Source: a virus
Length of the DNA: 24,336 nt
Reading direction: 5' to 3' (one strand)
IMG/VR virus record: IMGVR_UViG_3300031867_000025
Location: 70,150 to 94,485 of that record
Made by a program: the position numbers and the translations under genes
Shown here: in pieces, positions 1,522 through 24,336 of the stretch
How positions within the stretch are numbered: the first letter of the stretch is position 1
How the letters are laid out: every line of letters starts with the position of its first letter
The notes under the pieces: generated by a model
Seen by the model: only the letters and a program-made list of their open reading frames with translations
Databases searched by the model: none
Told to the model about the DNA's origin: nothing

Positions 1522-2169
1522 ATGAAACGTAAGGGATATGCACAAGTAGAACCTAATCATCTTTCTGCACAATATACCGGTCAAATTTATGCACAATTAC
1601 CTGCATTAAAGGCTGACGGCAAGCCAATTGAACAGCTTGAAAATGGCCAGTTTTTAAAGTATAATTATGCGGCAGGTAGAGCAAGTGTTGCTGGTAGTGG
1701 AGAATGGATGCTTGTTTATAATGAAGAAAAATTATATGATGAAAGACGTCAGAATCATAAGGACTTTGTTATGAAGGCTGAAGATATGACGGACGGAAAG
1801 ATTTATCCTAGATTATTAAAGACTAATGTAGGAGATATCTATACTACAAATGCTTTTAAAAATAGTGGTTCAGATGCTGCTACTAAACCAACTGTAGAAG
1901 GCCCGGATCAATCAATTGAAATGGCGGATCTTTCTATTGGTGATTATCTAGTAATTGGAAATGATGGATGGTTAACAAAAGCTTCTGGTGAAGGTATGCC
2001 GGCAGATGCTGTTGTTTTCCAGGTTGTACCTCATTTTACTCAGCTTAATGATGATGGTAGCGTGGACCCTTCTTATGAAGCGAAACCCGTTGGTAGTGAA
2101 ACTGTGAATGTATATAACTATACTCTTGCAGATATGCAGGATGCTGTAAAAATACAACGTGTGAAATAA
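1522..2169 (+). CDS. head protein, possibly decoration/auxiliary capsid protein (215 aa), no TAG
   Basis: Uninterrupted ORF with RBS TAGGAGGattgtgaagatATG, TAA stop, positioned between scaffold and major capsid genes. Function is inferred from position only. Confidence 0.6.
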   Translation: MKRKGYAQVEPNHLSAQYTGQIYAQLPALKADGKPIEQLENGQFLKYNYAAGRASVAGSGEWMLVYNEEKLYDERRQNHKDFVMKAEDMTDGKIYPRLLKTNVGDIYTTNAFKNSGSDAATKPTVEGPDQSIEMADLSIGDYLVIGNDGWLTKASGEGMPADAVVFQVVPHFTQLNDDGSVDPSYEAKPVGSETVNVYNYTLADMQDAVKIQRVK

Positions 2170-2191
2170 TTAATGATAGGAGGATAACGTA

Positions 2192-3256: not shown

Positions 3257-3275
3257 GGTTAATAATTAACATATT

Positions 3276-3312
3276 ATACCCTCCTTCTTATGAAGAAGGA
3301 GGGTATTATTTA
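3276..3312 (+). terminator. Rho-independent terminator after capsid gene
   Basis: 14-bp perfect stem ATACCCTCCTTCTT / AAGAAGGAGGGTAT (3276-3289 / 3293-3306) with a short loop, followed by the T-rich TATTATTT. Confidence 0.7.
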
Positions 3313-3338
3313 ATAAAGAGATAAAAGGAGTTTAAAAA

Positions 3339-3902
3339 ATGGATAAAAATACACCAATAAAAGTTTTAAATAGAGATAACGGCGCGGTAGTTTATTCTAT
3401 TCCAGAGATGAATGGGTTAACAAGAATTTTTCAGGCGGGAGAAACTAAAGAGGTAACTTATGAAGAGTTACAAAAATTATCTTATATTCCCGGTGGAAGT
3501 GAATTATTAAGAGATAGCTTAGTAATTTTAGATAATTCAACAACAGTTGAAAATTTAATTGGTCACGTAGAGCCTGAGTATTATTATACAAAAGATGATA
3601 TTATTAATTTAATGAAAACAGGTTCTTTAGATGCTTTTTTAGATTGTTTAGATTTTGCTCCAGAGGGAGTAAAGGATTTAATCAAAACTTTAGCAGTAGA
3701 CTTACCGTTAAATGATGTATCTAAACGAGAAGCAATCCTTGATAAATTAGGCTTTAATGTTGATAATGCTATTAGAATTAAAAATGAATCTACTGAACCT
3801 CAAGAGGAAGAACATGTTGCTAAGCGAAGAGTTCAAAAGGAAGAGACTAAGCCTGCGGAAACAATTACCCGTCGCCGCACCGTTGTGAAAAAAGAGAGTT
3901 AA
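3339..3902 (+). CDS. hypothetical structural protein (187 aa), no TAG, charged C-terminal tail
   Basis: Uninterrupted ORF with RBS AAAAGGAGtttaaaaaATG and TAA stop. Confidence 0.65.
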   Translation: MDKNTPIKVLNRDNGAVVYSIPEMNGLTRIFQAGETKEVTYEELQKLSYIPGGSELLRDSLVILDNSTTVENLIGHVEPEYYYTKDDIINLMKTGSLDAFLDCLDFAPEGVKDLIKTLAVDLPLNDVSKREAILDKLGFNVDNAIRIKNESTEPQEEEHVAKRRVQKEETKPAETITRRRTVVKKES

Positions 3903-7502: not shown

Positions 7503-8588
7503 ATGAAATTTGGTGTAAGATAGTGTGCAAACATTGTTTTTCGTGCAAAACAGAAGACTGTGATTGGAACATCTACTTTTAATGTAGGTCAACCAGTTCT
7601 TTATATTGATACAGCCACTACTTCCTCTATGGAACAGGCGAGTACTTCAGTATACGCACAAGGCGGACGCGGTAATGCTCGTTTACTTGCATGGGAAGGT
7701 GATAAGACATTAACATTTACTGTTACTGATGCTCTTATTTCTCCTGTTTCGTTAAGTATGTTATCAGGGGCAGGATTAATTAAAACAACTGGAGATTGGG
7801 TTCATGTGCATGCAACAACTGCTGCAACGATGACTCTTACTGGTACTGGTAACGGAGCTGTTGGACAAATTGATTTAACAGATGCATTAGCTGAATTTGG
7901 TGCAATTAATAGTTCTAAGACTGGTGATACTCAATCAGCTGGCAATGGCGGTATTTATGTGGATGCTGGTACAGATGCGCCACTGTTTATAATTGAAACA
8001 GAAGACGATGGTTCTATTACTGGTAGTATCATTACTTCTAATGCCACTGGTGGTATTACATATGAAGTTGAAATGGATACTGTTGATAATACAAAAGTAA
8101 AACGTGCTTATTTAAATATTCCACAGCCTAAAGAAAATAATACTACTGCTTTAACTGAATCAGATGGTAGTATTAATGTATTAGTAGATTATTATGTAGT
8201 TAAGAAATCTGATCAAGTATCTGAAATTCAGCTTACTCCTCAAGATTTTGCAGGATATTATTATGTAGAAGCTGATACTTTATTTAGATCTCAAGCAACT
8301 GGTATTGATATGCCTGCTAACTTAACATTCCCGAATGTTAAGATTCAGTCTGGATTTACTATTAGTATGGCTGGTACTGGTGATCCTAGTACATTTGACT
8401 TTACTATGGATGCGTTCCCAGGATATACTTATTTTGATAAGACTAAACAGGTGCTTTGCGTAATTCAGGTTGTTGAAGATAGTTTAGCTGCAACTTCTGA
8501 AGGACATAGCGTGATGCTTAAGAATACTGGTATTGAACATCCAGATATTTTTGATGATAGCGATTTAGTAGATCCAACAACAATCTAA
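7503..8588 (+). CDS. major tail (tube) protein (361 aa), single TAG at codon 7
   Basis: Strong RBS TAAGGAGGataattcttATG. Track ORF 7560..8588 starts at an internal GTG. The real ATG at 7503 is in the same frame and is separated from it by one TAG (7521-7523). The protein is Thr/Gly/Ser-rich and beta-rich, and the gene is followed by a strong terminator. Together with its position before the chaperone and tape-measure genes this supports a major tail protein. Confidence 0.65.
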
Positions 8589-8595
8589 TTTAAAT

Positions 8596-8630
8596 GGGAG
8601 GATAATTAATAATTATCCTCCCATTTTTTT
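8596..8630 (+). terminator. Rho-independent terminator after major tail gene
   Basis: Perfect 12-bp stem GGGAGGATAATT / AATTATCCTCCC with loop AAT, followed by ATTTTTTT. Confidence 0.8.
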
Positions 8631-9936
8631 GATATGGCGGGAAGAGGTGATTTTATTGCAAAACAATATACAAAAACCAGTTGTTACAATTAATAAAGGA
8701 GGCATTTATGAAGCGATCAAATCTACTGCTAAAAATAATATTAAGCCTGTTTTAGATCAAGAAATGTTAGATTATTATACAAGCATGACTTTAGAAATGA
8801 AAAAAAGAACATTGATAGAATATCAAAAGAAAATGGAATATCAATTAGGGGTCTTAAATGGGACTGAGTAGATCAATGAATATTTTAAAGCTTATGAATT
8901 AATATTAGATTTTCGTGAATTTATTTTAGGAAAATTAGGAAAAATTGATTATACTTTTACTTGGAAGACTACTTATGATGGTCAAGCTTTTATTAGAACT
9001 ATGGTGATTGGTAGAAAAGAAATGGCTGATTTAATAACAGATGAAAATGGAAAATTATTTGGTCTTTCAGGGAAAAAAAATGTTCAAAGAGGACCTACTG
9101 TAGGATTGCGTTTTAATCGTAAGTGGTTAAAACAGATTAATAATTTAGTTAAAAATTTAAATGCTCAAGATATAAATATTACAATAAATCAAGGGGAATC
9201 TTCTTTTTCTATTATTAATGAAAAAACAGGAGCAAGACAAATTTTTGTAAATTCAGGAATGTTTAAAGCAGAGATTAATAATCAAGAGAATAAAAGAGAA
9301 AATAACCAAATTTGGTATATTTTTACTATAGAATTAGAAACTGATAAAACTAAGGATGATGATAAAGAAGTATTTTCTTTTAAAACAAAAACAGTAGAAG
9401 CAAAAAAAGATGCCTTCTCTTCTACTGTTTTTTCAGCAATTGGAAAATATTTTGCAGATGAAATGAGAACAAAGAGAGAGTTAATAGCAAATCGTCAACT
9501 TAGTATAGATCCTAAATATCCTAACGAGGGAGTTTTAACAGAGATGTATATTCGAGCTAAAGTAGAATTAAATCAAGGTCATAATCATTTTAGTTCAGAT
9601 AGAGTGGTGTCTGGAGAAACATTATTTAATCTTTATCAAAAAGCAAAAGGAAATGCGTTGTTTTCTTCTGGCGGGGACTTTTTAATGGAGCAAATAAAAT
9701 CTTTTTTAGGAACTAATCCTACTTTAACTTAGTATTCTACAATACGCAAAACATTATAGTCTTTGGTTGAAGATTTAAAATAGAGCGATTTTCAGAAAAT
9801 GAAAAAAAGTCTTTCTAATGAATTATTACAAACTCCAAAATCTACTAATAAAAAAATTGATGAAAATGTTGAAAACACTTTATATCGGACATTATCATCA
9901 GCTTTATAGACTTTTTTTTCTGACTTGACAACCTAA
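8629..9936 (+). CDS. hypothetical protein (up to 435 aa) between the major tail and chaperone genes; TAG-poor (4 TAG, 3 of them in the last 68 codons)
   Basis: Track ORFs 8629..8871 (TTG start) and 9001..9732 are in the same frame. With TAG as sense the frame continues past 9732 to TAA 9934-9936. The true start may be the in-frame TTG at 8656, preceded by AGGTGAttttaTTG. Function is unknown. Confidence 0.45.
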
Positions 9937-9989: not shown

Positions 9990-10508
9990 ATGAAATATTC
10001 AGATTTAAATTTATCTATTAATAACGATACAGTTACTACACAAACTCCTTTCGGAGATATTGAAGTGCGGAAGTATCTTCCAGTTGAAGATAAAATTGAT
10101 CTTATTGAAATTGCTCTTCAAAAATCAGAAGAAAACGGTATTTATAATGAAATGAAGTTAGCAATGTATTTTAATCTATATATAATTTATATGTATACTG
10201 ATCTTGAATTTACAGATGAAGAAAAGGCGGATGAATATAAATTATATAACGAGTTAGAAAGTAATAATATTATTATCTCTGTGTTAGGTGCGCTTGATGA
10301 ATATGAGGAATTATTCCATTATTTGAACATTATGAAAGATATTAAAATGAAATATAAGACAAGTGCGGCCGCCATGGTGCAAACATTCATCCAGGATATG
10401 CCACGTAATGCCGCTGCAATGTCTGAGATAGTAGATAATTTCGATAAAGAAAAATATAAAGAAGTTGTTGAGTTTGCTAAATACGCTAATGGCGGAAGAC
10501 CTATTTAA
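9990..10508 (+). CDS. tail assembly chaperone (gpG-like; 172 aa), no TAG
   Basis: Uninterrupted acidic ORF immediately upstream of the tape-measure gene. Size, charge and position match phage tail assembly chaperones. TAA stop. Confidence 0.55.
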   Translation: MKYSDLNLSINNDTVTTQTPFGDIEVRKYLPVEDKIDLIEIALQKSEENGIYNEMKLAMYFNLYIIYMYTDLEFTDEEKADEYKLYNELESNNIIISVLGALDEYEELFHYLNIMKDIKMKYKTSAAAMVQTFIQDMPRNAAAMSEIVDNFDKEKYKEVVEFAKYANGGRPI

Positions 10509-10637
10509 TTTGCTTGGACAAAAAACTTCAAATGTTTATTAGACCTTTTGATATTAAGTAGTATTAATATTAAAAGGTCTTTTTTTATTTTTAAAAATAA
10601 ATAAAAAGGAGGAATAGGTATGCCTAATGGCGGAAGA
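10486..10637 (+). repeat. exact 14-nt direct repeat CTAATGGCGGAAGA, at 10486-10499 and 10624-10637, spaced 138 nt apart
   Basis: Read directly from the sequence. Both copies are in frame 0 and encode N-G-G-R. One lies 3 codons before the chaperone stop and the other 2 codons after the tape-measure start. Confidence 0.9.
10541..10592 (+). terminator. strong intrinsic terminator/attenuator between the chaperone and tape-measure genes
   Basis: 17-bp stem AGACCTTTTGATATTAA / TTAATATTAAAAGGTCT containing one G·U pair, a 6-nt loop GTAGTA, then TTTTTTATTTTT. Confidence 0.7.
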
Positions 10638-13600
10638 ATAGATTTTCAAGTTGGTTTTAAAACTGACAAAAGCGGTTTAAATTAGTTAAATAAAATTATT
10701 CAAGACCTTCAGGGAAAATTAACTAATACAGCTAGTAAGAATGGAATGTCTGATAGTTTACGAAAAGCAACTGACGCCGCAAAAGAATTATAGAAAATTA
10801 TAAACGGATCTTGGAATGATAAGCTATAGCAATTAAATGTAAATAAATTTAATACGAGCATAAATAAAGCTTTTGGATCCGCTTCAAATCTTAGAGACAT
10901 TTTAGCTCAATCAGGAAAAGATGGAACTGAAGCTTTTTTAAAAATTAGCTCATAGGTATTAAGCACTAATACTCAATTAAAACAAAGCAATAAGCTTTTA
11001 GATGATATGGCTGATACCTTTGGTAAAACAGTTAAGTATGGTATTGCATCTAGTGTTTTTAACAATATTAAGAATTCTCTTCAACAAGCTTTTTATTTTG
11101 CTAAAGACTTAGATTTATCTTTAACAAATATTAGAATTGTAACTGGTGACAGTGCAGATCAGATGGAACGGTTTTCTAAAACTGCAAACTAGGCTGCTAA
11201 AAATTTGGGCCGGTCTACGTTAGATTATACCAATGCCGCCTTAACTTTTTATCAACAGGGTTTAGGATAGTAGGATGTAAATGCTAGAACTCAAGCCACT
11301 ATGATGGCTCAGAATATTACTGGTGTTGGTACTTAGATGGCAGATTATTTAACTGCTGTTTGGAATGGTTATAAAGTTGGTGCAGAAGAAGCCGTTGAAT
11401 ATGTTGATAAGTTGGCTGCTGTTGCTGATAGTAGTGCGTCTGATATGTCATAGTTGGCTATTGCTATGTCAAAAGTGGCGTCCGCAGCTAATGTAATGGG
11501 CGTTGATTCTGACCAATTAAATGCTCAATTAGCTACTGTTATTGCTACGACTAGATAGGCTCCTGAATCAATTGGTACTGCTTTTAAAACTATTTATGCT
11601 AGAATAAATGATATTAAGGCTGGAACTGATTAGGCTGAAATTAGTTTAGGTAATTATTCTGGTAAAATGGCATCATTAGGATTTAATGTATTTGATACTA
11701 ACGGGAAACTAAAAGATACCGGTGATGTTATTGAAGAAGTTGGTGAACGCTGGGGTACGTTATCTAAAGAACAACAAGTTTATTTGGCTCAAGTAATGGG
11801 TGGTACTCGTCAATACAGTAGATTAATTTCTTTGTTTGACAATTGGAATATGTATTCTGAAATGTTAAACGTATCATTAAATTCATAGGGTACTTTACTT
11901 GAAAAAAATGAACGGTATTTAGATTCTGTAAAAGCCCATTTAGAATCCTTAAACACAGAGGCTGAACGTACATATATGATTTTATCTGATACAGGTGCGA
12001 TTAATGCGGCTGCAGATGCGTTAAATGTTGTTTTAACCTCATTTAATAATTTTCTTAGTGGTTTAGGTGGTGGTATAACCAGTATTACTTATATGGGTTC
12101 TCTTATATCAGGAGTTTTTAGTAAACAAATAGCTAAAGGAATTCAAGATGCTAAAGTACAATTAGATCAATTCTTTTCTACATAGCGAGCGCAGAAGGCT
12201 CAAAAGAAATGGGCGGAAGCTACTGTTTTAGTAACAAATGCTATGAATGGTGGAAATATAAATAGTAAGTCCGCGGGATATAAAGCACAAATTGAATAGG
12301 CTTTAAAATTGCAAAAAGTCGCTTCTGCATTAACAGAAGAAGAACAAAAAAAGGCGGGTTAGTTACAAAGATCTGTTGGTTTACATACAGAATTATTAGT
12401 TAAAGCACAAGAAGAACAAAAACAAGCGGAACAGACAAAAGCTCAATACAATGATCTTTATAAAAAATATAATGAAAATAAATATACTCTTGAATATAGT
12501 ATAGAACTAGAAGAAAAGAAAAATAAAAAAATTTAGCAATCTTTAAGTATTTTTGGACAGATTAATTAGATTCAAACACGAGGGCAACAAGAATAGAAAA
12601 ATAAAAATGCTGCATTTGATTTAATTAATAAAAAAGCTTCTATCTTAAAATAGACTTGGACAAGTATTGGGGTAGAAGAATCTCAAGCTGAAGAATATAT
12701 TAAAAAAATAAAAGATAATATTAAAAATGGAGATGATTATCTTAAAGATATTGAAGATGTTCAAACTGATTTTGTAGATGATTTAAAAAGAGGAAATACA
12801 AATCTTGAAAAAAGAAAAACTCTTTTAGCTGCAGTTTTAACAGATACTTCTAAATAGCAACAATAGAATTAGGAAGGTTTAAAAACAGATAGAGAACGCT
12901 TACGAATACTACGAGAAATGGCGGAGCAACGTCAAAAAACTCAAAAAATCGTACAATCTATTTCAGCAATAGGTCAAGTATTTTCTGCTGTTGCTGGAGC
13001 AGCAAAAGTTTTTGGAGATGAATCTTCTACAGGAGCAGAGAAAGCAAATGCGGCTTTTTCCACTGTACAAGGAACTATTTCGGCTATAGGGACTTATATA
13101 GGAGGACCATTTGGCACAGTAGTAGCTTCTGCGGTAAATTCAGTATTATCCTTAATAAAAGAAGTGACTCCTTTAGGTAAGGTAATGGAGGATTATTTTT
13201 CTTCTACTGAGGAAAAACTTCAAAAAATAAAAGATTTACATAAAGAAATAGATAAGGCTTCTCAAGATCATAATAAATCTAAACAAGCTTTAAAAGATAT
13301 TCAAGAAGAGTATGATAAATTAACAAGTAAATCTGGATCTTTAACTAATGCTGAGCAAGAGCGTTTAAATGAATTAGCTGAAATATTTAATAATTATAGT
13401 GATGGAGTTATTTTAGGCTATAATCAACAAGGCGATGCAATTATTAATAAAAATAGAAAAATAGATAATACTTTGGAAAAAATGGATCAATAGTATGAAG
13501 CTATTTTACGTAATAATCAAGCTAGAATGGATATTTCAGCCTAGGATAAAGCTTATCAAAATGCTTCAGACAGAGTTAAAGAATTAGAAACAAATGAAGT

Positions 13601-16600
13601 CTGGACAGGATAGACTCCAGAAGAAAATTTTTCATCTTATCTTACAACTATTAGACAAAATTTGACAGATCCTAATTTATATAGTTTTTATGACAATATT
13701 GATGGGATGCAAAAAACATTATTTGATACCCATGGAGTTGCTGTTCCTAAAATACAAGCCATTTTGGATAATTTTGAACAAGAACTCGCTGAAGCAGAAA
13801 ATATTTAGGATTTGGTTGCGGCTGCTTAGCCGTTATATGGAATTGCTACAAAAATAGATAATTTTAAATATGATGAAGAAAATGGTGATCAGCAGAGAAA
13901 AGACGAAGCTGCCGTTACAGAACAATTAAGAACTAATGTTCAAAGTCTGATATCAGCTGTTTAGCGTTTGAATAGTCAATATGTTGAAGCAAAATAGGAA
14001 GTAGAATAGTATACTAAAATTGATACTGGATATGTATTTCAAGGATTAAGATTATCTAAAGAATATAGTTCTTTTAAAAAGCAGGCTGGAGATAAATTAT
14101 GGAATAACGGCTTATAGGAAATTTTAGATGGTATTATTACAACCTTAGCTGAAGAAGCAGAAAGATCGGAAGACACTCCTACTGGAGATGCAGCAATAGA
14201 ACAAGGTCAAGAATATCTAGCTAATTTATTAACCATATTTGACCCTAAAGTAATTAATTAGGCAATGTAGAATCAACAAAAAACTATAGATAATATTATT
14301 GAACAAAATGGAAAAATTTCTGTAGGAAAATTGATTCAACAAACTAAACAAACTGCTACTTCTTTATATGAAAGTTTAATTAATGAATAGTCTACTTAGT
14401 AGCAAAAAGAAGCCGTTACTAAATTATTAAATATGTTATTTGGCTTTGATATGACAACAGGCACCTCAGAGTTAGAAAATAAAGTTAATGATTTTGTAAA
14501 AACCGCAACCGATTTAGTAACAGAAAAGGCTAAAGAAAAAGGAATTGATTACACCCCAACTCAATAGGAAACACAAGCTTTTACTTCTTTTGCAAAATCT
14601 TTGCCAGAAGCAGAGTTAGATATGAAATTAACTAATATTGATGACATGATAGCAGATAATATTTTATCTCTTACAAATTTAGTTAATGCTTATAAAATGG
14701 CAGGTAATGAAATTTCTAATTTTGGTAATGCAATAGATTTTAGTTGGGATAATCAAATAAAATTGTCAACTGCTTTAGGAAAAGCTAAAAGTTATAGTAA
14801 TATTGAAGGAGCTAATGATTTTTTAAGTTATTTGGAAGCTAATAATCCTAAATTAAAAGAGTTGGCTTCTAAATAGGGTGGGCGTTATGGAGAACTTTAT
14901 GTTCAAGAATATAATCGAATTATAAAACAAAATAAAGAAAAAGAAATTAAAGAAACAGAGACAAGAATAAATACCCTTTAGAAAAGATTAAATACATATA
15001 AAGATAAGGGAGTAAGCTCAGAGAGTGAAAAAGTTAAGAATGCTACAACAGAATTAGGCTCTTTACAAACTCAATTAATTTAGCAACAGAGTGATTTAGC
15101 GAGATTGACAGAAGAGACAAACTAGTCATTAGATGAACAAAATGAAAAACTTGAAAAGCAAGTTTCTTTATTAAAGAATTTTAAACAAAATAATGAAACT
15201 AATAATAATGCATTAAGTGCATATGATAAATTAAAATCAGACTCAGGCTCAAAACTAACTGATAAAGAAAGTGCTGCTATAGCAGATTTAACATCAAGGT
15301 ATATAGAATTAGCTTAGGCTTAGAAAAAATATGGTGTTGGAACCATATAGTATATGTATGTTTTAGAAGATGTTTTAAAATTAGAGCGGGAAAGAGTTAG
15401 TGCTTTACAAGCGCAGTCAGCAGAAAAATTAACGGCTTTGTCAGAAATAGATGAATAGGATTTACAAAATAAAATAGATAAAGCAGATGCTATAATTGAA
15501 AATAATCAAAATAAATTAGTTTAGGTATAGAAGTAGTATAGTGCTGAAATTAGTCGGGCTTTGCAAGCAGGTCTTAATGGAGAGCAAATACAAACTATAA
15601 CTGATAAATATAGCACAAAAATTAAAGAAATTTCTGATAATATTGATAAATTTACATAGAAAAAAGCTAAATGGCAAGAAACTATGGATCTTTTAAAAGA
15701 AAATCCATAGGCGGCCGCGGATGCAATGTAGGCTTTAGGTATGACTGTTGATGGTTTAGATGAAAAATATGTTAATTTATCTGATAAACTTAATGGATTA
15801 AACGGGTTTTATGAAAAATTATCTGAAGGCGCGCAATTAAGTAAAGAAGAGCTTCTTGATTTTAGCGATTTATTAGATTCTATCCAATAGCAATATGACG
15901 GTTTAGATAATACAATAGAAACTCTTAGAAAAACATGGATGTCTGGAACAGAATAGTATTCAATAGCACTATAGGAACTTCAGTCAAAATTAACTAGCTT
16001 ATCTCTTCAATAGGCATATGATAAGTTGACTTATGATGCTAATGAAGTTGAACATATCTTTATTCAAGTAGATGATGAAGCTTTTCAATCATGGAAAGAA
16101 GATGTTGAACGATTTTTTGAAGATGATAAAACTATGTCTGTTAGAGTAGATAATGCATTAGATCAAGAAATTAATAAAATTAAAAAGGATTTTGATGAAA
16201 TATATAGTGCAGCTAGTAAGATAGGAGAAGGCTTTAAAGTTTCTGCATCTGATATTGGTGAAATTACTAAAGTATTTCCATAGATTACAGAAGGCATGGT
16301 TCGTTTTGCAGACGGGTCTTATCAATTAAATCAGCAAGTGGTCCAACAAGCTATTTCCGCGGCGCAGGCAGAGGTTTCTGCAAATGGATAGGCTATTGCT
16401 GAAAAAATTAAACAATAGGCTGATTATCACAATGCTAAAGCAGACATATATGACCAAATAGCAGCTATTGCAGCTTAGATGGCTGAGAATTAGGTCATGA
16501 CCGAAGAAGACAAAAATTAGCGTATAGGTCAAATCAATGGTCTTTTGAGTCAACTGCAAGAATAGAATAAAGGAAAAGTTGTTGAGTATTAGAAAAAAGC

Positions 16601-19600
16601 TAGCGATGAAATAAAAGTAAAAGAATAGGATACTGCTACTCATAGACAATCTATAAATGCTAATATGTATAGAAGTCTTACTGAAATGAGTAATGCTAGA
16701 GCGCAACAAGATGTGGCAAATACGCAAGCAATGTTTGATGCAGATCAAGCGCGCGCTAATAATATGCGGCCTGCAGATTATGTTGCGGGAAATGGTTTAG
16801 ATGCATTTAATGGACGAGCTCCTATTCAAAGTAGTTATTCAGTTATTGATCCAGGGTCTACAGCTCAAGATACTTTTACTATTAACCCAGACTTTGGTAC
16901 ATATTCTACTCAAGATTGGCGAAATTTATAGAGTCAAGCAAGAGCGCGTGCAGAGCAAGAGAGACGCCTTGCAGAATTAGCTATGTCTAAATATTATGAT
17001 ATTATGGGCAGGGCTAATAAGACCATTTACGGACTTGGAAATGTGGGTCGTGGAGAAGGTATCGAAGGAGCTAAACCAGAAAAAGAAAAAGAAGAGAAAC
17101 CAAAAGAAGAAAAAGTTCAGGAGCCGCCAGATCCTAATATTGAAAAATATTTAAAGGATGAGTTTGATAGATATCATGATATTAATATTATTATTTAGAG
17201 AATAAATCGTCAATTAAAAAATATGTAGGCTCAACAAAAGAAACTTGTTGGTAAAGATTTAATTCATAATTATCAAAGACAATTAGAATTATTAAATTAG
17301 CAAATTGAAGCTCAAAAGCAAAAAATGAGTATTGCTCAACAAGAAGCGGGAGAGCTGCGGGCGAGTTTAAGCGCACAGGGGTTAGCGTTTCAAGAAAATG
17401 GATAGATCGCAAATTATCTTGGTGTATTATCAGCAAAACAAAATGCAATTAATGAATATATTGGTTTTTATAATTCTTTAACTAAAGAAGAACAAGAATA
17501 TGCCAAAGATGTTCTTGATTCTATGAAAGAACAATATGAGGACTTAAAGAAAGATATTGCTCGTTATGATGAAGTTGTTAATACTATGATTCCTGATTTA
17601 GCTGATCAGATACGTGAAGAAACTTAGAAAAAGGTTGAAATAGCTATTTCTAAGAGTAAAATGGCGGTTGATATAAAAATTGATATGTCTCAATTACAGC
17701 GTGATTATAATAAATTTTTGAAGAATATTAAGTATCAAATAAAAGATTGGGATATATTAGGTAGTACAAAGTATGCTTTTAAAGATTTACAATCTTATTT
17801 CCAAGATGGTATATATAATTCAACAAAAGCGCAAACTGATCACATTTATTTTCTTATAGATCAACTTCGTCAAATAAATCAATCAGGTTTTTCTGATGTA
17901 TATGGAGATAATAAAAAACAGGCATTAGACGATTTATAGCATTATAGACAAAGTCTTGAGGGAGATTTAGAAAGTATTCTAGGACTAATTGATCAAATTA
18001 AAGAAAATGTTATAAAGGCTATTGAACAAGTAGAAAAAGGTTTCCAAGATAGATAGAAATATTATAATCACGTTTCAAGTTTATTAGATCATGATTTGAA
18101 AGTTGTTGAATTAATTTATGGCAAACAGGCTTATGATAAAATGGATACTATGTATCAAAGACGTTTTGAACATGATGTAGATCATTTAAATAAGCTTGCG
18201 GAAGAAAAGGAATATTGGCGGGAACAGTTAGAAAAAGAAAAGGCACACCAAAAATTATTAAAGCAGGGAAGTAATGTTTGGCAAGAATCTCAGGAGCGGA
18301 TTAAAGAGTTTGAATAGAACTGGATGGATGCAACAGATAGACTGAACTCCGCGTTTGAAGCTTCTCTTGATAATGTTATTAATAAATATAAAAATGGTGT
18401 AGATCAAATTTTTGATAAGTATGAAAGATAGATGTTTGGTGGTCAAACTATTGATGAACTTATTGAAGATTGGGAATTAGCAAAAGAAGCAGCAAATATA
18501 TACTTAGATAATGTAAATAGAACTTATGCTATTGATAAGTTAAGTAATGGATATGATCAATTATTTGAGAAAGCTAATGGTAATCTTAAATTACAAAAGG
18601 AAATTAATGCTGCAAAAGAGGCTGAGGTTTAGAGTTTAAAGAAAATGGAAAAAATAGATCAAGGCACAATTGATGTTGCTAATAAAAAACTATAGGTACT
18701 TCAAGCCCAAATTGCTTTAGAAGATTCTCGTAATAATAGGTCTACTTTACAATTAAGACGTGATTCTCAAGGTAATTATTCTTATCAATATGCGGCAGAT
18801 ATGGATGATGCTGAAGATAAATTACAAAAATATAAAGATGAAACAAATGAGCTTTATAATCTTGCTAAAAGGTTGCAAAATTAGTATGAAGAAAAAACTA
18901 TGTAGGCAACAAAGAGAATGATTGATAAAGTTAAGGAACTTCGTTATGAAGCTTATTTATTTGACATAGACACATCCGCAAGAGAATAGGAGATCGTGAA
19001 AACTTATTTAGGTAATATATAGGCTTATGCAGGAATTTCAGAGCAACATAAAGTAGATACAGCCAAATAGGCTCTTGCTACAATTACAGATAATGACCCT
19101 AATTATAGCTATCGAAGAGTATTTGATCCTCAATCAGGTAAATTATCTACATATTATGGTTATGGATAGACAACGGTTAAAGAATGGGCTAAACATAATG
19201 AAGAAACTATAACTAAAATGATGCAAAATTTGGAAGCGGGCCCATACGCAGCCAATAAAAAAGCTTTTTATGATATGATTTATAATAATGGTAATGGTAT
19301 GGTTCCAATGTGGAGTAGTGGAGTTTCTAAGTATATTGAAAGAATTAATAGTGGTCCAGATGGATTACGTCCTGTTATGAGATAGGCTATAAAAGAATTA
19401 AATGGGCTACTTGTTAGTTATAAAAAAGAATTTATTGAATTAGCTAGTTCCGCAAAGAAAGATACTAAAACTATAGGAACTGGATTAAATGATGATATTA
19501 AATTAACTAAAGAACTTGTTACAGATAATGAAAAATTATTAGATTCTTATCAAGATATTTTTAATGATATGATGAATCACTGGATTCCTACTTTAGAAAA

Positions 19601-20459
19601 ATATATTAAAAAGCATGAAGAATTACAAGCTGCGATTGAGGCTGTTACTAAAGCTTATAAGATTCAACAAGAAGAACAAAGGCGGGCGGCAGAAGCTGCT
19701 ACCCAAGTAGCTGGATCTGCGGCGGTTTCTATAGGAGACACTTCTTTATTTGATGGAACTTATAATCAGGTACATCCTGATGTAAGCTATAGCAGCCACA
19801 GCAGTAGTCGTAGACGAAATACTGTCGTGATAGATCCTGGTGCTTATGGAGGCGGGGGCGGTTTTGGAATAGGCTCTACGGTAAGGTTTTTATCAGGTCG
19901 ATATACAGCAAATTCTTCTGGAGGAGGTACATCTGGAGATGCTTCTTTAGGAAGCTATGTAACAATAACTCTTACTAATCCTGGAGCTCCTCGTCCTTAT
20001 CATATCTCAGGATCAGATTATTGGGGAAATTATTCTGATTTAGGATGGGTTTCTGAAGATCAATTAGGTTATAGATCAGGAGGTTACACTGGAGAATGGG
20101 GGTCTTCTGATGGAAGATGGGCATTACTTCATCAAAAAGAACTTGTATTAAATGCTCAAGATACTTAGAATATGTTAGAAGCGGTAAGGACTGTCCGTGA
20201 CTTAACTGCTGAAATGCAAGCTAATTATAGACAACGTTTATTACAATATCAACTTATGCAAGAATAGATGAGTGCATTACAATCAAAAATGCTTTTTGAT
20301 ATGAATAGTTTCTTATTTACTGATAGAGAACAAACTCCAGTTCAACAAAATGTTTATATTACGGCAGATTTCCCAGCAGCTCAATATCATAGAGAAATTG
20401 AATTAGCATTTGAAAATCTTACAAATCGTGCTTCTCAGTATTTATTTACTAGTAGATAA
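10620..20459 (+). CDS. tail tape measure protein, giant (3279 codons), with roughly 100 in-frame TAG codons read as sense
   Basis: RBS AAAAAGGAGGaataggtATG. All 14 track ORFs from 11007 to 20459 are in frame 0, and the segments checked in between contain only TAG interruptions, never TAA or TGA. The N-terminal region carries the conserved tape-measure core (…GKTVKYGIASSVFNNIKNSLQQAFYFAKDLDLSLTNIRIVTGDSADQMERFSKTAN…LDYTNAALTFYQQGLG…MADYLTAVWNGY…). The remainder is a long alpha-helical K/E/Q-rich region with a Gly-rich C-terminal domain. The gene ends at TAA 20457-20459. Confidence 0.85.
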
Positions 20460-20506: not shown

Positions 20507-23500
20507 ATGAGTGATATAACTCAAAATTTATTAGATACAATATCAATGATAGCAGCCCATGCTGTATCTAATGCTTAGTTTGATAGAACAATACAGGCGG
20601 TAATTGTATCTTGTGAAGATTAGGCGTTAGGAAAATATAAAGTTAAATATCAAGATTCTTTATGGATGGCTTATAATAATAATTCTACTACAAAATATAG
20701 CGCAGGAACTAGCGTATATGTGCTTGTGCCTGGAAATAATATGTCAAAAAATAAAACAATTATAGGTACAGTTAGTGCATTAGGAGAAAATTACATTAAT
20801 TATATTAGTAATGAATAGAATTATATTGAAAATGGAAATAGTATTGTAGAAATGTCAGAAGAAACAGAATATGGATTATGTTCTTATGAAATAGAAGATA
20901 GTAAAACTTTAATAGGAGAAGAAGGTTTTATACTAAATACCGATGCGGCTAATGAATATTTAAGTACGTCTGAATATATATTATTAAAAGCTGATTTCCG
21001 CACTAATCTTGCAAAAGAGCAACGTCGCGCAGGTAACTATGGTTTAAAAGCAAGATTGATATTTAAAACACAAGAAGATCCAAACAAAACATATGGAATG
21101 GATTACGTATTAGATATAGATAATATGGTTGGTAATCCATATTTATTATCTGCTCCACTAACTCAAAAAGCATATTTTCCTATTGATGGAGCAAATTTTG
21201 TTAGAGTTGAATCAATTAGTATTTTTAGTGAGGGATTTATTAACCATATAGCAAATAAATCTGATGACATTTTCGTTTCTGGTATAGAAATAATAGGCGC
21301 AAATACTTTAACAGAATAGGAAAAACAAGGTATTTCTTTACGTTTTAAACGTCCAAAAGGATATATTTTTACTTCAGCCGATAATTCTTAGGCTATAAAA
21401 ACAGTAATTGCACAGATTAGAGTGGCAAATAAATTATTAACGTCTACTGAAAATGTAGAATATTATTGGTTTAAACAAAATATAACTGTTGAGGCGGGTA
21501 GTCAACGTTATAGTAAAGCTGGTGGAAAAGGTTGGGAATGTTTAAATTAGTTGAATACATCATAGGCAACAGATATTAAATTTTTACCTGGAATAGATAC
21601 ATTTACAATTAAAAAAGCGGATGCTATAGCGGAACATACTAAATTTAAATGTGTTGTTGTTTATGATGGAAAAGAAATTTCTAATACTTTTGAAATAATA
21701 AATAAAGATTCTCAGTATATTATTGAAATAATTTGTGATCAGTAGCCAGTCTTTTATCCAAATGTAGATACTTTACATTTAACTTGTTTAGTTAAAAATC
21801 GTTAGGATGGGTCTGAAACAACAGGGGTAGCATATAATTGGAGATTAATAACTTAGCATAATACTTATTATTCATTAAGTGAAACTACTAACGTTTTAAC
21901 TATACAATCTGATAGTATACGTAATTATAATGATTATTATTGTTCAATATATAATTCAGGAACTTTAATTGGAACGGCAACTTTAAGAGTAACAAAAAAT
22001 GCAGAACCATAGAATAGATATATTCTTTCTTTAGTAAATGGAACACAAGTATTTAATTATGATGAAATGGGACATAGTCCTTATGATATATATCGTCAAG
22101 CGGGAAGAACTATCCCGCAGCTTAGCTTTACTGTTGCGGATGTTGTAACCGGAGCAGATGTAACAAATTAGGTTAAAGATATCATATGGACAATTCCATT
22201 AAAAAATACTTTATTGACTGATGAAAATCAAGCAGAAGGACAAATGAGTGAAAACGGAGAATATAAAGAATATACTAATTTACAAGATTTTACGTATGGT
22301 ATTGATAGTAGATATTATCATAATTTTACTAATAATGAAATTAAATTAAAAGTAATTATTCATGGGATAGAATTGTATGCAAAAACTAATTTTACATTTA
22401 CAAAAGAAGGAGATCCTGGTACTAATGGAACTGATATAATTTGTAAAATTGTAGCATCAAAAGATGATAATATTGTTCCTGGTTGGCTAATTGCGGATTA
22501 TAAAAGAGGAACATATAATTGGGATAATATGATTGTTTAGTTGTGGCGGAATGGATAGAGAATTTTTGGAAGCAGAACAAGTCGCGCCAAAGCTAATAAT
22601 TAGCCAGAAATTAAAGTTACTTGGGAATTTTTAAGTAATACGGATAAAACATTGTGGTTTAAGATCCCAGAAGGCGCCTCTACTATTACAGATCATCAAG
22701 ATGCAACAGAAAATAAGGTAGTGCTTTTTAATGATAAGACATTGTCTATGAATTCATTAAATTGGACTGAGGTAGATGGTTACCCCGCCAATATACTAAA
22801 AGTGACAGTGTAGTATGATCAAAATAGAAAGTATTATGATACTCGTCCTATTGTTACCGTATTTGAAGAATCTTCTACCAGTAATGAAGTTACTTTAGAA
22901 TCTTATTCCGGTTTTTAGTATGCAGTATATTCGGAAGATGGTGAAAATCCATTATATGATGATTTAAATCCTTTTACTATTGTACAATCTGCGAGTAGTC
23001 GATAGAATGTAACATGGTCAGTTATAGGATCTGTAAGATCTGGATATGAGAAATTTGCAGCTATTTCCGCATCTAATTTTGAAATAGACAGATTTAAAAA
23101 TAGTCAAAATAATATTACAGATAGTAATGGAGATAAAATGTATTTTAGACCTAAGCCTACTTATGATGGGTTATGTGTTACAAATGCTATTTTGGCTAAA
23201 GGTTCTCATTTTTGGTTGCATATTCCTATACATTTAATGTATAACAGATATGGGCATAAACAGTTAAATGATTGGGATGGAAATTCAATTGTAATGAATG
23301 ATAAAGAAGGATAGGATCATTATATTTTAACTCCTCAAATTGGAGCTGGTATGAAAAATTCAGAGGACAACACTTTTACTGGATTAATGATGGGTACAAC
23401 TAAGGTGATTACTGGCGATCCGGATGGTTATACTATATAGACTGGATTGCTTGGGTATAATAATGGAGAAAGAACAATATTTTTAGATGCTAAGACTGGT

Positions 23501-24336
23501 AAAGCTGAATTTGGAAGAGCAGATACTGGAAGAATTATTATTGACCCTTCTCAACAAAAAGAAGGAAAACCTCAAGCTTTAATATATGGAGGTGTTTATA
23601 GAGAAAAGGGTATTGACGATGATTAGGGGTCTGGTATGATCATTAATTTAACCAAACCTTCTATTGAATTTGGCTCTAAAAAATTTACTGTAGATGAACA
23701 AGCATTTACAGTTGGTGAAGATAAAATTATTTACGACATGGATAAAAACAAATTATCTTTAAAATTAGATGAATTTTCTTTAGGAGGTAAAGACTTATAG
23801 GAAATAGTTGATGAAGCTGATAATTTTTTATTAGATGCGAAAGGATTATCTAGTACCTATTGGACAATAGTTGGTACTTTAGAAGATAATCAAGATGATC
23901 CATTTGGAAAAAAAGGAGCTTGTTTGTTATCTCCTGAATCTGGAAAAAGCGCATATATACAAGCAAAAAAAGATAATAATAATCCTTTTAAAGAATTAGG
24001 TAGACGTTATCAGCTATCTGTATGGTTAAAAACATCAACATCAAATAATTCTAATAATTCAATAGATATTTATTTTAATGGAGTGGCACATACTGTAACT
24101 CCAACAAATATTTGGAAACAATATAGTTTTGAACAATAGGTAACTACTTTAAATACTAGTTATCCCAATGATCTTGTAACAATTGGTGGACAATCTTCTT
24201 TTTCATCTTCTGATGGATATAATTTATATATATATAATCCTTATGTATCTTTTGTAGAAACTCAATTAGAAATTTTTAATAGATTAACAAATGATGGAGC
24301 TGCTCAAGGTATACAATTAAAGAATGGGTAGCTATA
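20507..24336 (+). CDS. very large tail-tip / receptor-binding protein (distal-tail/tail-fibre-like; at least 1276 codons, 3' partial), 24 in-frame TAG
   Basis: ATG 20507 with RBS AAGGAGGtttaatatATG. Track ORFs 20852.., 22214.. and 23924.. are all in frame 2. Codon-by-codon checks of the joins show TAG only. The C-terminal visible part (…YQLSVWLKTSTSNNSNNSIDIYFNGVAHTVTPTNIWKQYSFEQ…) resembles a beta-sandwich carbohydrate-binding module. The frame continues beyond the window end. Confidence 0.6.

What the first reader, a model, noticed from the sequence alone, without database searches (positions are those of the whole stretch)
10620..20459. Exceptionally long tape-measure gene (3279 codons), predicting an extremely long non-contractile tail
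Tape-measure length scales with tail length at roughly 0.15 nm per residue (established from lambda and other siphoviruses). A 3279-aa protein therefore implies a tail approaching 0.5 µm, which is at the extreme of what has been described. It is encoded as a single uninterrupted frame only under the recoded genetic code. The N-terminal 500 aa carries the conserved core. Most of the rest is helical and K/E/Q-rich. The last 200 aa (19569-20165) are Gly-rich and TAG-free.
Basis: partly seen in the sequence, partly recalled or inferred. Interest (0 to 1): 0.75.

Follow-up and report, generated by a model that had tools for sequence, protein, structure and literature searches.

The report
Giant recoded phage tape-measure gene
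This is one real 3,279-codon tail tape-measure gene of a gut siphovirus; that length is normal for its large, already described phage group, but its 85 in-frame TAG codons appear to encode glutamate, not glutamine as assumed.

Summary
Window 10620-20459 is one frame of 3,279 codons with 85 in-frame TAG and no TAA/TGA until the TAA at 20457 (chance 1e-65 or less).

It is a tape-measure protein. Pfam PhageMin_Tail matches residues 190-389. It aligns N-to-C with single-ORF homologues in standard-code relatives and sits in an SPbeta-like siphovirus tail module (YomU-type tube gene, no sheath gene).

"Exceptionally long" does not hold within its clade:
- The 120 best database homologues are 2,662-4,113 aa, and 22 exceed 3,279.
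- 74 complete IMG/VR relatives are 2,358-3,219 aa.
- Cultured relatives: Bacillus phage Tsamsa 3,123 aa with a 440 nm tail; Lactococcus PMBT69 3,301 aa; Lactococcus 949-group phages with 480-500 nm tails.
- The TAG-recoded phAss-1 group (3,149-3,209 aa) was published in 2023.
- Thermus P23-45 has a 5,002-aa tape measure and an 800 nm tail.

A tail of about 0.46-0.52 µm is a fair inference, not a record.

Unexpected: in this lineage TAG lines up with Glu codons, not Gln. Two standard-code relatives carry Glu at 25 of 32 TerL/portal TAG columns and Gln at none. Other TAG-recoded lineages of the same family show the usual Gln pattern. I found no report of TAG->Glu in phages in the searchable library. 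No suppressor tRNA was found.

The parts
10606..10612 (+). Shine-Dalgarno AAGGAGG, 7 nt upstream of the ATG at 10620
   Evidence: Upstream sequence printed. The public gene call on the source contig starts at the same ATG.
10620..20459 (+). Tail tape-measure protein gene: 3,279 sense codons plus TAA, with 85 in-frame TAG read as sense (most likely Glu)
   Evidence: Colinear homologues.
11187..11786 (+). PhageMin_Tail (PF10145) core, residues 190-389, inside the conserved N-terminal block of about 600 residues
   Evidence: E 1.2e-25, 91 bits against cut-off 33.2. (PHROG tape-measure families). 40-49% identity to relatives over residues 1-600.
12063..13178 (+). Three hydrophobic, Gly-rich segments (residues 482-501, 777-800, 827-853) of the kind common in tape-measure proteins
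   Evidence: Kyte-Doolittle scan. Calling this a typical tape-measure feature rests on general knowledge.
12420..17126 (+). Poorly conserved central region (about residues 600-2170), polar, low in Pro and Gly; the presumed length-setting rod
   Evidence: No BLAST alignment to most relatives over this span. Composition. Crude helix-propensity scan. No internal repeats by self-BLAST.
17127..20456 (+). Conserved C-terminal third (about residues 2170-3279), aligned colinearly with all relatives
   Evidence: 22-31% identity over 1,100-1,500 residues. In library representatives the match always lies at the C-terminal end.
19878..20072 (+). Small Gly-rich beta-barrel, SH3-like (residues about 3087-3151). 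It follows a 90-residue helix and a disordered linker
   Evidence: AlphaFold2 on alignment A2: strands at model residues 165-229 with pLDDT 79-92. Foldseek gives only weak SH3-type matches, best E 0.057. In one homologue (P0009) this stretch of the alignment shows no similarity to the other sequences; that protein carries a precomputed LysM (PF01476) hit whose position was not mapped.
20079..20165 (+). Clade-wide C-terminal motif GGYTGxW...GRxAxLHQKELVLNxxDT (residues 3154-3182). A second conserved block, EQNVxIxAxFPNV...EIExA, follows near the C-terminus
   Evidence: Invariant and near-invariant columns in alignments A1 and A2. The motif [QE]KEL[VI]LNxxD retrieved 356 IMG/VR relatives.
7503..8588 (+). 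Tail tube (major tail) protein, 361 aa, with TAG at codon 7
   Evidence: Pfam YomU_Tube is precomputed on the same gene of the source contig and on relatives. PHROG 2729 hit. 29-38% identity to tube or virion proteins of Enterococcus, Tsamsa and 949-group siphoviruses. Codon 7 checked.
8764..9936 (+). 390-aa gene between tube and chaperone-like gene, function unknown. Start taken from the public gene call; the first in-frame ATG at 8554 overlaps the tube gene and lacks an SD
   Evidence: No PHROG or Pfam hit.
9990..10508 (+). 172-aa TAG-free gene directly upstream of the tape measure, conserved in the clade; probable tail assembly chaperone
   Evidence: 25 standard-code loci hold a homologue at the same place. 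PHROG 30570. Weak Pfam YomO on the L090 orthologue. The chaperone role is inferred from position.
20507..24336 (+). Large distal tail / fibre protein, runs off the window (more than 1,276 aa, 24 TAG)
   Evidence: Homologues directly downstream of the tape measure in 33 loci. Orthologues of 1,863-1,880 aa carry Peptidase_S74, or a faint CBM_4_9 hit.

Best explanation
Window 10620-20459 is a single late gene for the tail tape-measure protein of an SPbeta-like siphovirus from the human gut, probably with a Firmicute host.

How it most likely works:
- The protein is made only when in-frame TAG is read as sense. That is the case for most structural genes of this phage.
- By analogy with lambda and with cultured relatives, several copies of the mostly helical protein fill the lumen of the growing tail tube (YomU-type tube protein, 7503-8588).
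- The N-terminal PhageMin_Tail block and the conserved C-terminal block (SH3-like barrel plus the GGYTG...LHQKELVLN motif) would anchor the two ends. This step is inferred.
- The poorly conserved central rod of about 1,500 residues would set the length, giving a flexible non-contractile tail of roughly 0.46-0.52 µm.

This length class (2,600-4,100 residues) is the norm for the clade, not an outlier.

The 85 TAG codons are most likely translated as glutamate, so the product is about 10% Glu. The length does not depend on which amino acid is inserted.

What is shown: gene integrity, family membership, synteny, the length distribution in relatives, and the Glu pattern at TAG columns. What is inferred: tail length, the roles of the two ends, and the decoding mechanism.
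For: Open frame and its statistics.

Tape-measure family: Pfam PF10145 at 91 bits and ten PHROG hits, nine of them tape-measure families.

Colinear N-to-C alignment with uninterrupted standard-code ORFs:
- MT835936.1, 2,939 aa.
- Enterococcus phage H1 gene H1_60, 2,673 aa.
- 37 IMG/VR loci of 2,587-3,210 codons.

Closest relatives: P0140 is 80% identical over 100% of the length and 3,256 aa. The 120 best hits are 2,662-4,113 aa.

TAG is sense: 54 of the 85 TAG are shared with L091, and the others are replaced there by sense codons.

Siphovirus context:
- Precomputed Pfam families YonD_N, YonB, YomW, YomV_2nd and YomU_Tube on the source contig.
- The tube protein is homologous to those of Tsamsa, the 949 group and Enterococcus phages.
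- No PHROG or Pfam scan of the window's genes returned a sheath family.

Length calibration: Tsamsa 3,123 aa and 440 nm (PMC3903500). PMBT24 1,508 aa and 238 nm (PMC11035940). PMBT69 (949-like) 3,301-aa tape measure, and phages of the 949 group, phiL47 and phi949, with 480-500 nm tails (PMC3888941).

Architecture: composition and hydrophobic segments. AF2 model of residues 2923-3182 with a 90-residue helix and a small barrel.

TAG as Glu.
Against: - No particle has been seen, so tail length is extrapolated.
- The helical nature of most of the protein rests on composition and a crude propensity scan (56% helix-prone).
- About 250-300 residues are not rod-like (the barrel, the linker, residues 2052-2101), so the ruler may be slightly shorter than 3,279 residues implies.
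- No suppressor tRNA was found on the 28.6-kb source contig or on about 100 kb of related contigs, so the decoding machinery is unknown.
- In the weakly conserved tape measure itself the column likelihood cannot separate Glu from Gln (-119.0 against -120.7). A minority of TAG columns are Gln-type, for example residue 313.
Confidence: 0.88

Rival explanations
1. The TAGs are read as glutamine (NCBI table 15), as in crAss-like, Lak and phAss-1 phages. The Glu-like pattern would then come from frequent GAG-to-TAG mutations giving tolerated Glu-to-Gln replacements.
For: - TAG to Gln is the only amber reassignment reported for phages in the papers read (10.1101/2021.08.26.457843; PMC10607447).
- Some TAG columns of the tape measure are Gln-type: residues 22, 313, 2755, 2790.
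- The column likelihood in the tape measure is undecided.
Against: - In the well conserved TerL, portal and YonD proteins, the majority non-TAG residue is Glu in 52 of 68 TAG columns and Gln in 5. Non-TAG codons in those columns: 344 Glu, 46 Gln.
- Standard-code relatives L100 and L104 carry Glu at 25 of 32 such columns and Gln at none.
- One relative has TAG at residue 183, the first Glu of the otherwise invariant GGLMEEC.
- Control TAG lineages of the same tape-measure family at similar divergence exchange TAG with CAA/CAG (Gln codons) far more often than with GAA/GAG (Glu codons): 26:1, 25:4, 32:9, 14:0. The window lineage shows 13:23, 25:41 and 26:58.
- CAA/CAG content is not depleted in this lineage (5.8-6.4% against a norm of 6.5%). 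In control lineages CAA/CAG plus TAG sums to the norm.
Confidence: 0.17
2. The protein is long because it carries non-ruler cargo, as the N-terminal RNA polymerase in the P23-45 tape measure does. The tail would then be much shorter than 0.5 µm.
For: - There is precedent in P23-45 (PMC10770324).
- An SH3-like barrel and several non-helical stretches exist.
- Some homologues carry extra domains: inteins in P0204 and P0208, and LysM in P0009.
Against: - Pfam finds nothing besides PF10145 in 3,279 residues.
- The longest stretch without helix propensity is 135 residues.
- In homologous cultured phages tape-measure length and tail length do scale (Tsamsa; PMBT24).
Confidence: 0.1
3. There is a real gene boundary inside 10620-20459: two or more genes, or a TAG that acts as a functional stop with a restart.
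For: - Standard-code gene finders split the region into ORFs of 261 codons or fewer.
- Tsamsa's tape measure runs as two bands of 280 and 100 kDa (PMC3903500), so processing of such proteins occurs.
Against: - There is no TAA or TGA in 3,285 codons.
- Homologues in three different codes are single ORFs, colinear end to end.
- TAG positions turn over to sense codons between close relatives.
Confidence: 0.02
4. The phage is a myovirus, and the long tape measure belongs to a contractile tail.
For: None was found. Tape-measure proteins as such also occur in myoviruses.
Against: - None of the PHROG or Pfam scans of the window's genes returned a sheath family.
- The tube protein belongs to the SPbeta YomU family and matches siphoviruses with measured flexible tails.
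Confidence: 0.02

Closest known systems
phAss-1 / proposed Phassvirus group of human-gut phages (Babkin et al. 2023, PMC10607447; OQ749652)
   Same: - Gut phages of about 136 kb with most virion genes interrupted by TAG.
- Tape-measure proteins of 3,149, 3,150 and 3,209 aa, read by those authors as a siphovirus feature.
- Homologous tape-measure core and tube protein.
- The same wider group as Enterococcus phage EF1.
   Different: - Only a distant relative: 35% identity over about 216 aa of the tape measure and 46% in the tube protein.
- phAss-1 carries tRNA-Sup-CTA genes next to nrdD, and its TAG aligns with conserved Gln in TerL according to the paper.
- In the window lineage TAG aligns with Glu, and no suppressor tRNA was found at the syntenic place.
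Bacillus phage vB_BanS-Tsamsa (giant siphovirus; PMC3903500)
   Same: - Tape measure of 3,123 aa with a homologous N-terminal core.
- Homologous tube protein.
- Measured flexible tail of 440 nm.
   Different: - Standard genetic code; Bacillus host; 169-kb temperate phage.
- The tape measures align only over the core.
Lactococcus 949-group phages (phi949, phiL47, PMBT69; PMC3888941)
   Same: - Tails of 480-500 nm.
- PMBT69 has a 3,301-aa ORF in the tape-measure position with a homologous core, longer than the window's protein.
- Homologous tube protein.
   Different: Standard code; dairy or plant Lactococcus hosts; low identity outside the core.
Enterococcus phages H1, EF1/EF5, VRE9_1-4 (about 134-142 kb)
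   Same: - The best cultured match for the whole protein: N-terminal core, middle part and C-terminal motif all align colinearly. The tape measure is 2,673 aa in H1.
- Syntenic structural module; tube protein 37% identical.
   Different: - Standard code; about 600 residues shorter.
- I found no published tail measurement for these phages.
Bacillus subtilis phage SPbeta structural module
   Same: The window's capsid-to-tail genes fall in the Pfam families named after SPbeta genes: YonD_N, YonB, YomW, YomV_2nd and YomU_Tube.
   Different: From memory, SPbeta's tape measure (YomI/CwlP) is shorter, about 2,285 aa, and carries muralytic domains. No such domain is detected here.
Thermus phages P23-45 / P74-26
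   Same: Siphoviruses whose giant tape measure matches an extreme tail length.
   Different: 5,002 residues and an 800 nm tail, well beyond this case, with an N-terminal virion RNA polymerase in the tape measure (PMC10770324; 10.1101/2022.12.01.518664). Not tested for homology here.

Membership tests
Tail length tape-measure protein (Pfam PF10145 PhageMin_Tail / TP901-type) | PF10145 domain above the curated gathering score | tested here: met
   91 bits against cut-off 33.2, residues 190-389. Nine PHROG tape-measure families hit.
Tail length tape-measure protein (Pfam PF10145 PhageMin_Tail / TP901-type) | Position in the tail module: after the tube and chaperone-type genes, before the distal tail / fibre genes | tested here: met
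   Order is tube 7503-8588, 8764-9936, 9990-10508, tape measure, then the large tail protein from 20507. The order is the same in L001, L002 and L089-L093.
Tail length tape-measure protein (Pfam PF10145 PhageMin_Tail / TP901-type) | Extended, mostly alpha-helical protein with hydrophobic/Gly-rich segments | tested here: inconclusive
   Pro 1.2% and Gly 5.7%; three hydrophobic segments. Crude propensity scan 56% helix. AF2 shows a 90-residue helix in the only stretch that could be modelled.
Tail length tape-measure protein (Pfam PF10145 PhageMin_Tail / TP901-type) | Protein length determines tail length; protein located in the tail lumen | not testable with these tools
   Needs particles, EM and deletion mutants. 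Only calibration from relatives is available (PMC3903500, PMC11035940, PMC3888941).
SPbeta-like long-tailed siphoviruses (non-contractile) | SPbeta-type head and tail genes, including the YomU tube protein | tested here: met
   Precomputed Pfam hits YonD_N, YonB, YomW, YomV_2nd and YomU_Tube on the genes of the source contig. The local Pfam copy lacks these new models.
SPbeta-like long-tailed siphoviruses (non-contractile) | No tail sheath gene | tested here: met
   No sheath family came up in the PHROG or Pfam scans of the 14 ORFs in the window, and the precomputed Pfam hits on the genes of the source-contig stretch read (L094) include none. The complete genome was not available.
Code-15 phages (TAG reassigned to Gln; NCBI 'Caudoviricetes code 15 clade') | In-frame TAG in essential genes that are intact only when TAG is read as sense | tested here: met
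   10 of 14 window ORFs, plus TerL (11 TAG) and portal (5 TAG) on the source contig.
Code-15 phages (TAG reassigned to Gln; NCBI 'Caudoviricetes code 15 clade') | TAG aligns with conserved glutamine in homologues | tested here: not met
   TAG columns are Glu columns: 52 of 68 are Glu-majority against 5 Gln-majority. Standard-code relatives carry Glu at 25 of 32 and Gln at 0. The alignment is shown. The opposite pattern appears in control lineages.
Code-15 phages (TAG reassigned to Gln; NCBI 'Caudoviricetes code 15 clade') | Phage-encoded suppressor tRNA with anticodon CUA | tested here: inconclusive
   None in the window, the source-contig stretch read (L094, 16.4 kb of the 28.6-kb contig) or about 100 kb of relatives' DNA, by ARAGORN and Rfam. 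No complete genome of the lineage was available. Borges et al. report that only 35-40% of recoded phages encode one.

The most novel reading that the evidence does not exclude
The 85 in-frame TAG codons of this tape-measure gene, and those of the other late genes of this gut-phage lineage, are decoded as glutamate rather than glutamine.

This would be an amber-to-Glu reassignment, so far described only in some eukaryotes (peritrich ciliates, Blastocrithidia). It sits inside a phage family whose other branches use TAG as Gln, TGA as Trp, or the standard code.

A possible route, inferred from general knowledge and untested here: Firmicute hosts lack GlnRS and make Gln-tRNA by glutamylation followed by GatCAB amidation. 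A tRNA(CUA) that is glutamylated but not recognised by GatCAB would insert Glu. Partial amidation would give a Glu/Gln mixture, which could explain the minority of Gln-type TAG columns.
Probability: 0.7. Interest if true: 0.75.

Novelty: new member of a known kind. Interest (0 to 1): 0.4.

Why it matters
The tape-measure gene adds one more member to a known class: giant tape measures of long-tailed Firmicute siphoviruses, including TAG-recoded gut phages. It shows how large that class is. The search found 4,415 database homologues at E <= 1e-20, and the 120 best are 2,662-4,113 aa long, so tails of about 0.4-0.6 µm may be common in the gut virome.

The more consequential point is the code. If TAG means Glu here:
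- Table-15 translations of this lineage in public databases put Gln at 2-3% of positions in late proteins. One example is residue 183, the first Glu of the otherwise invariant GGLMEEC motif in the large terminase of one relative.
- Phage stop-codon recoding would be less constrained than the current picture of "TAG to Gln, TGA to Trp only".
- One phage family would offer closely related lineages with four codes for studying how reassignment arises.

Tried and rejected
- Megablast of the whole window against 50,697 phage records: only a 570-nt match.
- First IMG/VR scan with exact peptides from the tape-measure N-terminus: nothing. An alignment-derived motif then worked.
- Contigs of the first C-terminal hits (L003-L005) were cut inside the tape measure and gave no lengths.
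- Single-sequence AF2 of the tube protein was useless, pLDDT 33. Tube identity was settled through precomputed Pfam YomU_Tube and homology.
- The local Pfam copy gave no hit for any neighbouring gene.
- TerL against PDB sequences: no hit. No catalytic-motif assignment was therefore attempted for GGLMEEC; only its conservation is used.
- Column-likelihood inference of the TAG amino acid from the tape measure alone was undecided, and noisy across lineages when low-complexity filters were off. TAG sites of other window genes against distant standard-code loci were also uninformative. The question was settled only with TerL, portal and YonD of closer relatives.
- Suppressor tRNA hunt, with none found:
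  - the window, the source contig and all related loci;
  - the place syntenic to phAss-1's tRNA-Sup genes next to nrdD;
  - one further 10-kb walk on IMG/VR contig 3300031867_000416.
- A possible programmed frameshift between the tube gene and the next ORF (overlap 8554-8588) was considered. It was dropped because the public gene call starts that ORF at 8764 and relatives show no overlap.
- Internal tandem duplication as the source of length: self-BLAST finds none.

Full report
THE OBSERVATION

The window has 31% G+C. In the frame of position 10620 there is no TAA or TGA between the TAA at 10602 and the TAA at 20457. There are 85 TAG. The first ATG is at 10620 and is preceded by AAGGAGG. Under the standard code the region falls apart into ORFs of 261 codons or fewer.

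In the two off-frames of the same stretch TAA+TGA make up 4.5% and 12.7% of codons. A run of 3,285 codons without them therefore has a chance probability of 1e-65 or less.

With TAG read as sense, the whole + strand tiles into 14 consecutive ORFs, nearly all with Shine-Dalgarno sites, and 10 of them contain TAG. The window comes from ENA contig ERZ27256863:k141_3825295 (28,580 bp). The public gene call there is also 3,279 residues.

WHAT IT IS

The product matches Pfam PhageMin_Tail at residues 190-389 (91 bits, cut-off 33.2). It also matches nine PHROG tape-measure families over residues 17-723.

Its neighbours form an SPbeta-type structural module. The genes of the source contig carry precomputed Pfam hits YonD_N, YonB, YomW, YomV_2nd and YomU_Tube. 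The tube protein (7503-8588) is 29-47% identical to tube or virion proteins of Enterococcus phages EF1/H1/VRE9, Bacillus phage Tsamsa, Lactococcus 949-group phages and others. No PHROG or Pfam scan of the window's genes returned a tail-sheath family. This supports a non-contractile tail.

ONE GENE OR SEVERAL?

It is not met.
- A human-faecal contig in GenBank (MT835936.1) has a standard-code ORF of 2,939 aa. It aligns with residues 1-601 and 1747-3279, N-terminus to N-terminus and C-terminus to C-terminus.
- Enterococcus phage H1 has a 2,673-aa gene that does the same.
- A motif from the conserved C-terminus retrieved 356 IMG/VR relatives. Of the best 80, 74 hold a complete ORF of 2,358-3,219 aa measured from the first Met (median 2,818). 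37 are in the standard code, 24 need TAG as sense and 13 need TGA as sense.
- In the 5.8-billion-protein collection the closest relative is 80% identical over the full length and 3,256 aa long.
- Between the window and that relative 54 TAG are shared. The others are replaced by sense codons.

TAG is therefore a sense codon and there is no internal boundary.

IS IT EXCEPTIONAL?

No.
- The 120 best homologues measure 2,662-4,113 aa (median 2,916). 49 are 3,000 aa or longer and 22 exceed 3,279.
- An exhaustive profile-free search with the TAG-free C-terminal stretch found 541 cluster representatives. The match always lies near the C-terminus, and the full-length proteins are mostly 2,400-3,300 aa, up to about 3,900.
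- Cultured precedents: Tsamsa has 3,123 aa and a 440 nm tail (PMC3903500). Lactococcus phage PMBT69 has a 3,301-aa ORF in the tape-measure position. 949-group phages have 480-500 nm tails (PMC3888941).
- Babkin et al. 2023 described TAG-recoded gut phages with tape measures of 3,149, 3,150 and 3,209 aa (PMC10607447). phAss-1 is a distant relative of the window phage.
- The record is far higher. Thermus phage P23-45 has a 5,002-residue tape measure and an 800 nm tail (PMC10770324; 10.1101/2022.12.01.518664).

Using 0.141 nm per residue (Tsamsa) to 0.158 nm per residue (PMBT24: 1,508 aa and 238 nm, PMC11035940), 3,279 residues predict about 460-520 nm.

ANATOMY

- The N-terminal block of about 600 residues is conserved (40-49% identity to relatives).
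- The C-terminal third, from about residue 1750/2170, is also conserved.
- The region in between is polar, poor in Pro and Gly and poorly conserved. It has three hydrophobic Gly-rich segments near its start (residues 482-501, 777-800, 827-853).
- Self-BLAST shows no internal repeats.
- A crude propensity scan% helix and 18% strand. The longest non-helical stretch is 3033-3167.
- AlphaFold2 on the only long TAG-free stretch (residues 2923-3182, 19-sequence alignment) gives a 90-residue helix, a disordered linker and a small beta-barrel with pLDDT 79-92. The best fold matches of the barrel are SH3-type, but weak (E 0.06 or more).
- The Gly-rich region is therefore a small SH3-like domain. It is followed by the clade-wide motif GGYTGxW...LHQKELVLNxxDT and a conserved C-terminal block.
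- No enzymatic domain was detected.

THE UNEXPECTED PART: WHICH AMINO ACID IS TAG?

Several independent comparisons say otherwise for this lineage.

1. Codon-level alignment of the tape measure with its closest recoded relatives shows TAG exchanging with GAA/GAG (Glu codons) more often than with CAA/CAG (Gln codons): 23 against 13 (L091, 81% identity), 41 against 25 (L092), and 58 against 26 (L091 against L092). Other TAG-recoded lineages of the same protein family at similar divergence show the opposite: 1:26, 4:25, 9:32, 8:26 and 0:14.

2. In those control lineages CAA/CAG (Gln) codons are depleted, and CAA/CAG plus TAG sums to 5.7-6.9%, the standard-code norm being 6.5%. In the window lineage CAA/CAG is 5.8-6.4%, with a further 2.5-3.1% TAG on top.

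3. Codon 7 of the tube gene is TAG in the window and in three relatives. 72 of the 120 best database homologues have Glu there. The other 48 are written as Gln in the database, and all four that I could check at the DNA level are TAG.

4. The decisive test uses the source contig's large terminase (11 TAG), portal and YonD proteins and 12 IMG/VR relatives (66-79% identical TerL). Ten of these have in-frame TAG in the TerL alignment (nine carry 12-18, L103 carries 2) and two have none.
   - Of 68 alignment columns that hold a TAG, the majority non-TAG residue is Glu in 52 and Gln in 5.
   - Non-TAG codons in those columns are 344 Glu, 46 Gln and 23 Asp.
   - The two standard-code relatives have Glu at 25 of 32 such columns and Gln at none.
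   - The alignment shows it plainly: TTGGK#QAAS against TTGGKEQAAS, DSFDR#YRS against DSFDREYRS, PINT#AY against PINTEAY. In one contig GGLM#ECVLID stands against the otherwise invariant GGLMEECVLID.

A minority of TAG columns are Gln-type, for example tape-measure residue 313. The tape measure alone cannot separate the two readings. Some Gln-to-Glu replacements through CAG-to-TAG, or mixed decoding, cannot be excluded.

Borges et al. state that they observed only TAG to Gln and TGA to Trp in phages whose code differs from the host's (10.1101/2021.08.26.457843). Three searches of the held library found TAG to Glu only in ciliates and Blastocrithidia. The library is incomplete, so prior description elsewhere cannot be ruled out.

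MECHANISM OF DECODING: UNRESOLVED

No tRNA gene was found in any of the following:
- the window and the stretch of the source contig read (L094, 16.4 kb);
- the related loci around the tape measure and TerL;
- the position syntenic to phAss-1's two tRNA-Sup-CTA genes next to nrdD;
- 10 kb further along the same IMG/VR contig.

One hypothesis rests on established knowledge of Firmicute translation and was not tested here. These hosts have no GlnRS. Gln-tRNA is made by a non-discriminating GluRS followed by GatCAB amidation. A CUA suppressor that escapes GatCAB would deliver Glu.

TAG is nearly absent from the replication genes of a relative (DNA polymerase III alpha 0 TAG in 1,318 codons, NrdD 1). 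It is also absent from the major capsid gene of the window. This fits the published idea that recoding marks late genes.

VERDICT

The gene is real, single and correctly identified. The half-micrometre tail is a reasonable inference. The claim of exceptional length is not borne out: this is a new member of a known and already published kind. The item that deserves follow-up is the probable amber-to-glutamate code of the lineage. It changes 85 residues of this protein but not its length.

Noticed in passing
All TAG-containing genes of the window (e.g. 7521-7523, and the 85 TAG in 10620-20459); L094:519-2264 (TerL) and L094:2753-4345 (portal): In this lineage TAG aligns with Glu codons, not Gln. 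52 of 68 TAG columns in TerL, portal, YonD and a small upstream ORF are Glu-majority. Two standard-code relatives have Glu at 25 of 32 TerL/portal TAG columns and Gln at none. Control TAG lineages of the same family behave as Gln. I found no report of TAG->Glu in phages in the held library.
   Followed up: yes
window 7521-7523 (codon 7 of the tail tube gene); also L089:7853, L090:6524, L092:6598: TAG at codon 7 of the tube gene is conserved across relatives with 76-94% identical tube proteins. 72 of the 120 best homologues have Glu at that site. An early TAG in a major virion gene would act as a translation gate if suppressor supply is timed.
   Followed up: partly
L006-L085 (IMG/VR relatives of the tape measure): One phage family, three stop-codon usages. 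Among 74 complete homologous tape-measure genes, 37 are intact in the standard code, 24 only with TAG as sense and 13 only with TGA as sense (TGA aligns with Trp). With the Glu lineage that makes four codes in one family.
   Followed up: partly
window 1522-3902 and 9990-10508; L109:2354-6310: TAG is unevenly spread. The major capsid gene, two neighbouring genes and the chaperone-like gene have none, while other virion genes have 1-85. In a relative the DNA polymerase III alpha gene (1,318 codons) has none and nrdD has one.
   Followed up: partly
L094:1524-1526 (TerL codon 336 on the source contig, about 2.7 kb upstream of the window): One TAG sits where all 12 relatives have Ile (AFYV#GVDV against AYYVIGVDV), next to a conserved GVDVGR motif. 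It could be an assembly or sequencing error, or a real oddity.
   Followed up: no
L101, L103, L105 (TerL of IMG/VR relatives), near TerL residue 105: The terminase gene is interrupted by an insertion of about 1.3-2.5 kb and the flanking exons are in different frames. It looks like an intron or homing-endonuclease insertion.
   Followed up: no
P0204 (3,611 aa), P0208 (3,644 aa), P0146 (4,113 aa): Some tape-measure homologues carry intein/Hint domains (PF07591, PF14890), and one reaches 4,113 aa. Part of the length spread in the family is therefore not ruler.
   Followed up: no
window 8515-8764: The ORF after the tube gene is open from 8515 and has an ATG at 8554 that overlaps the tube gene without an SD. 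A GGGAGGA lies at 8597-8603, and the public gene call starts at 8764. The true start is unclear. A frameshift product was considered and not supported.
   Followed up: partly
window 19878-20072: The Gly-rich part of the tape measure folds (AF2, pLDDT 79-92) into a small SH3-like barrel. In one homologue (P0009) this stretch of the alignment shows no similarity to the others, and that protein carries a precomputed LysM hit whose position was not mapped. This suggests a cell-wall-binding module near the tape measure's C-terminus.
   Followed up: partly
P0020-P0139; The tube protein has at least 7,975 database homologues at E <= 1e-5, and the 120 best are 68-94% identical. This phage group is very abundant in public metagenomes, yet its cultured relatives are few and distant.
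   Followed up: no
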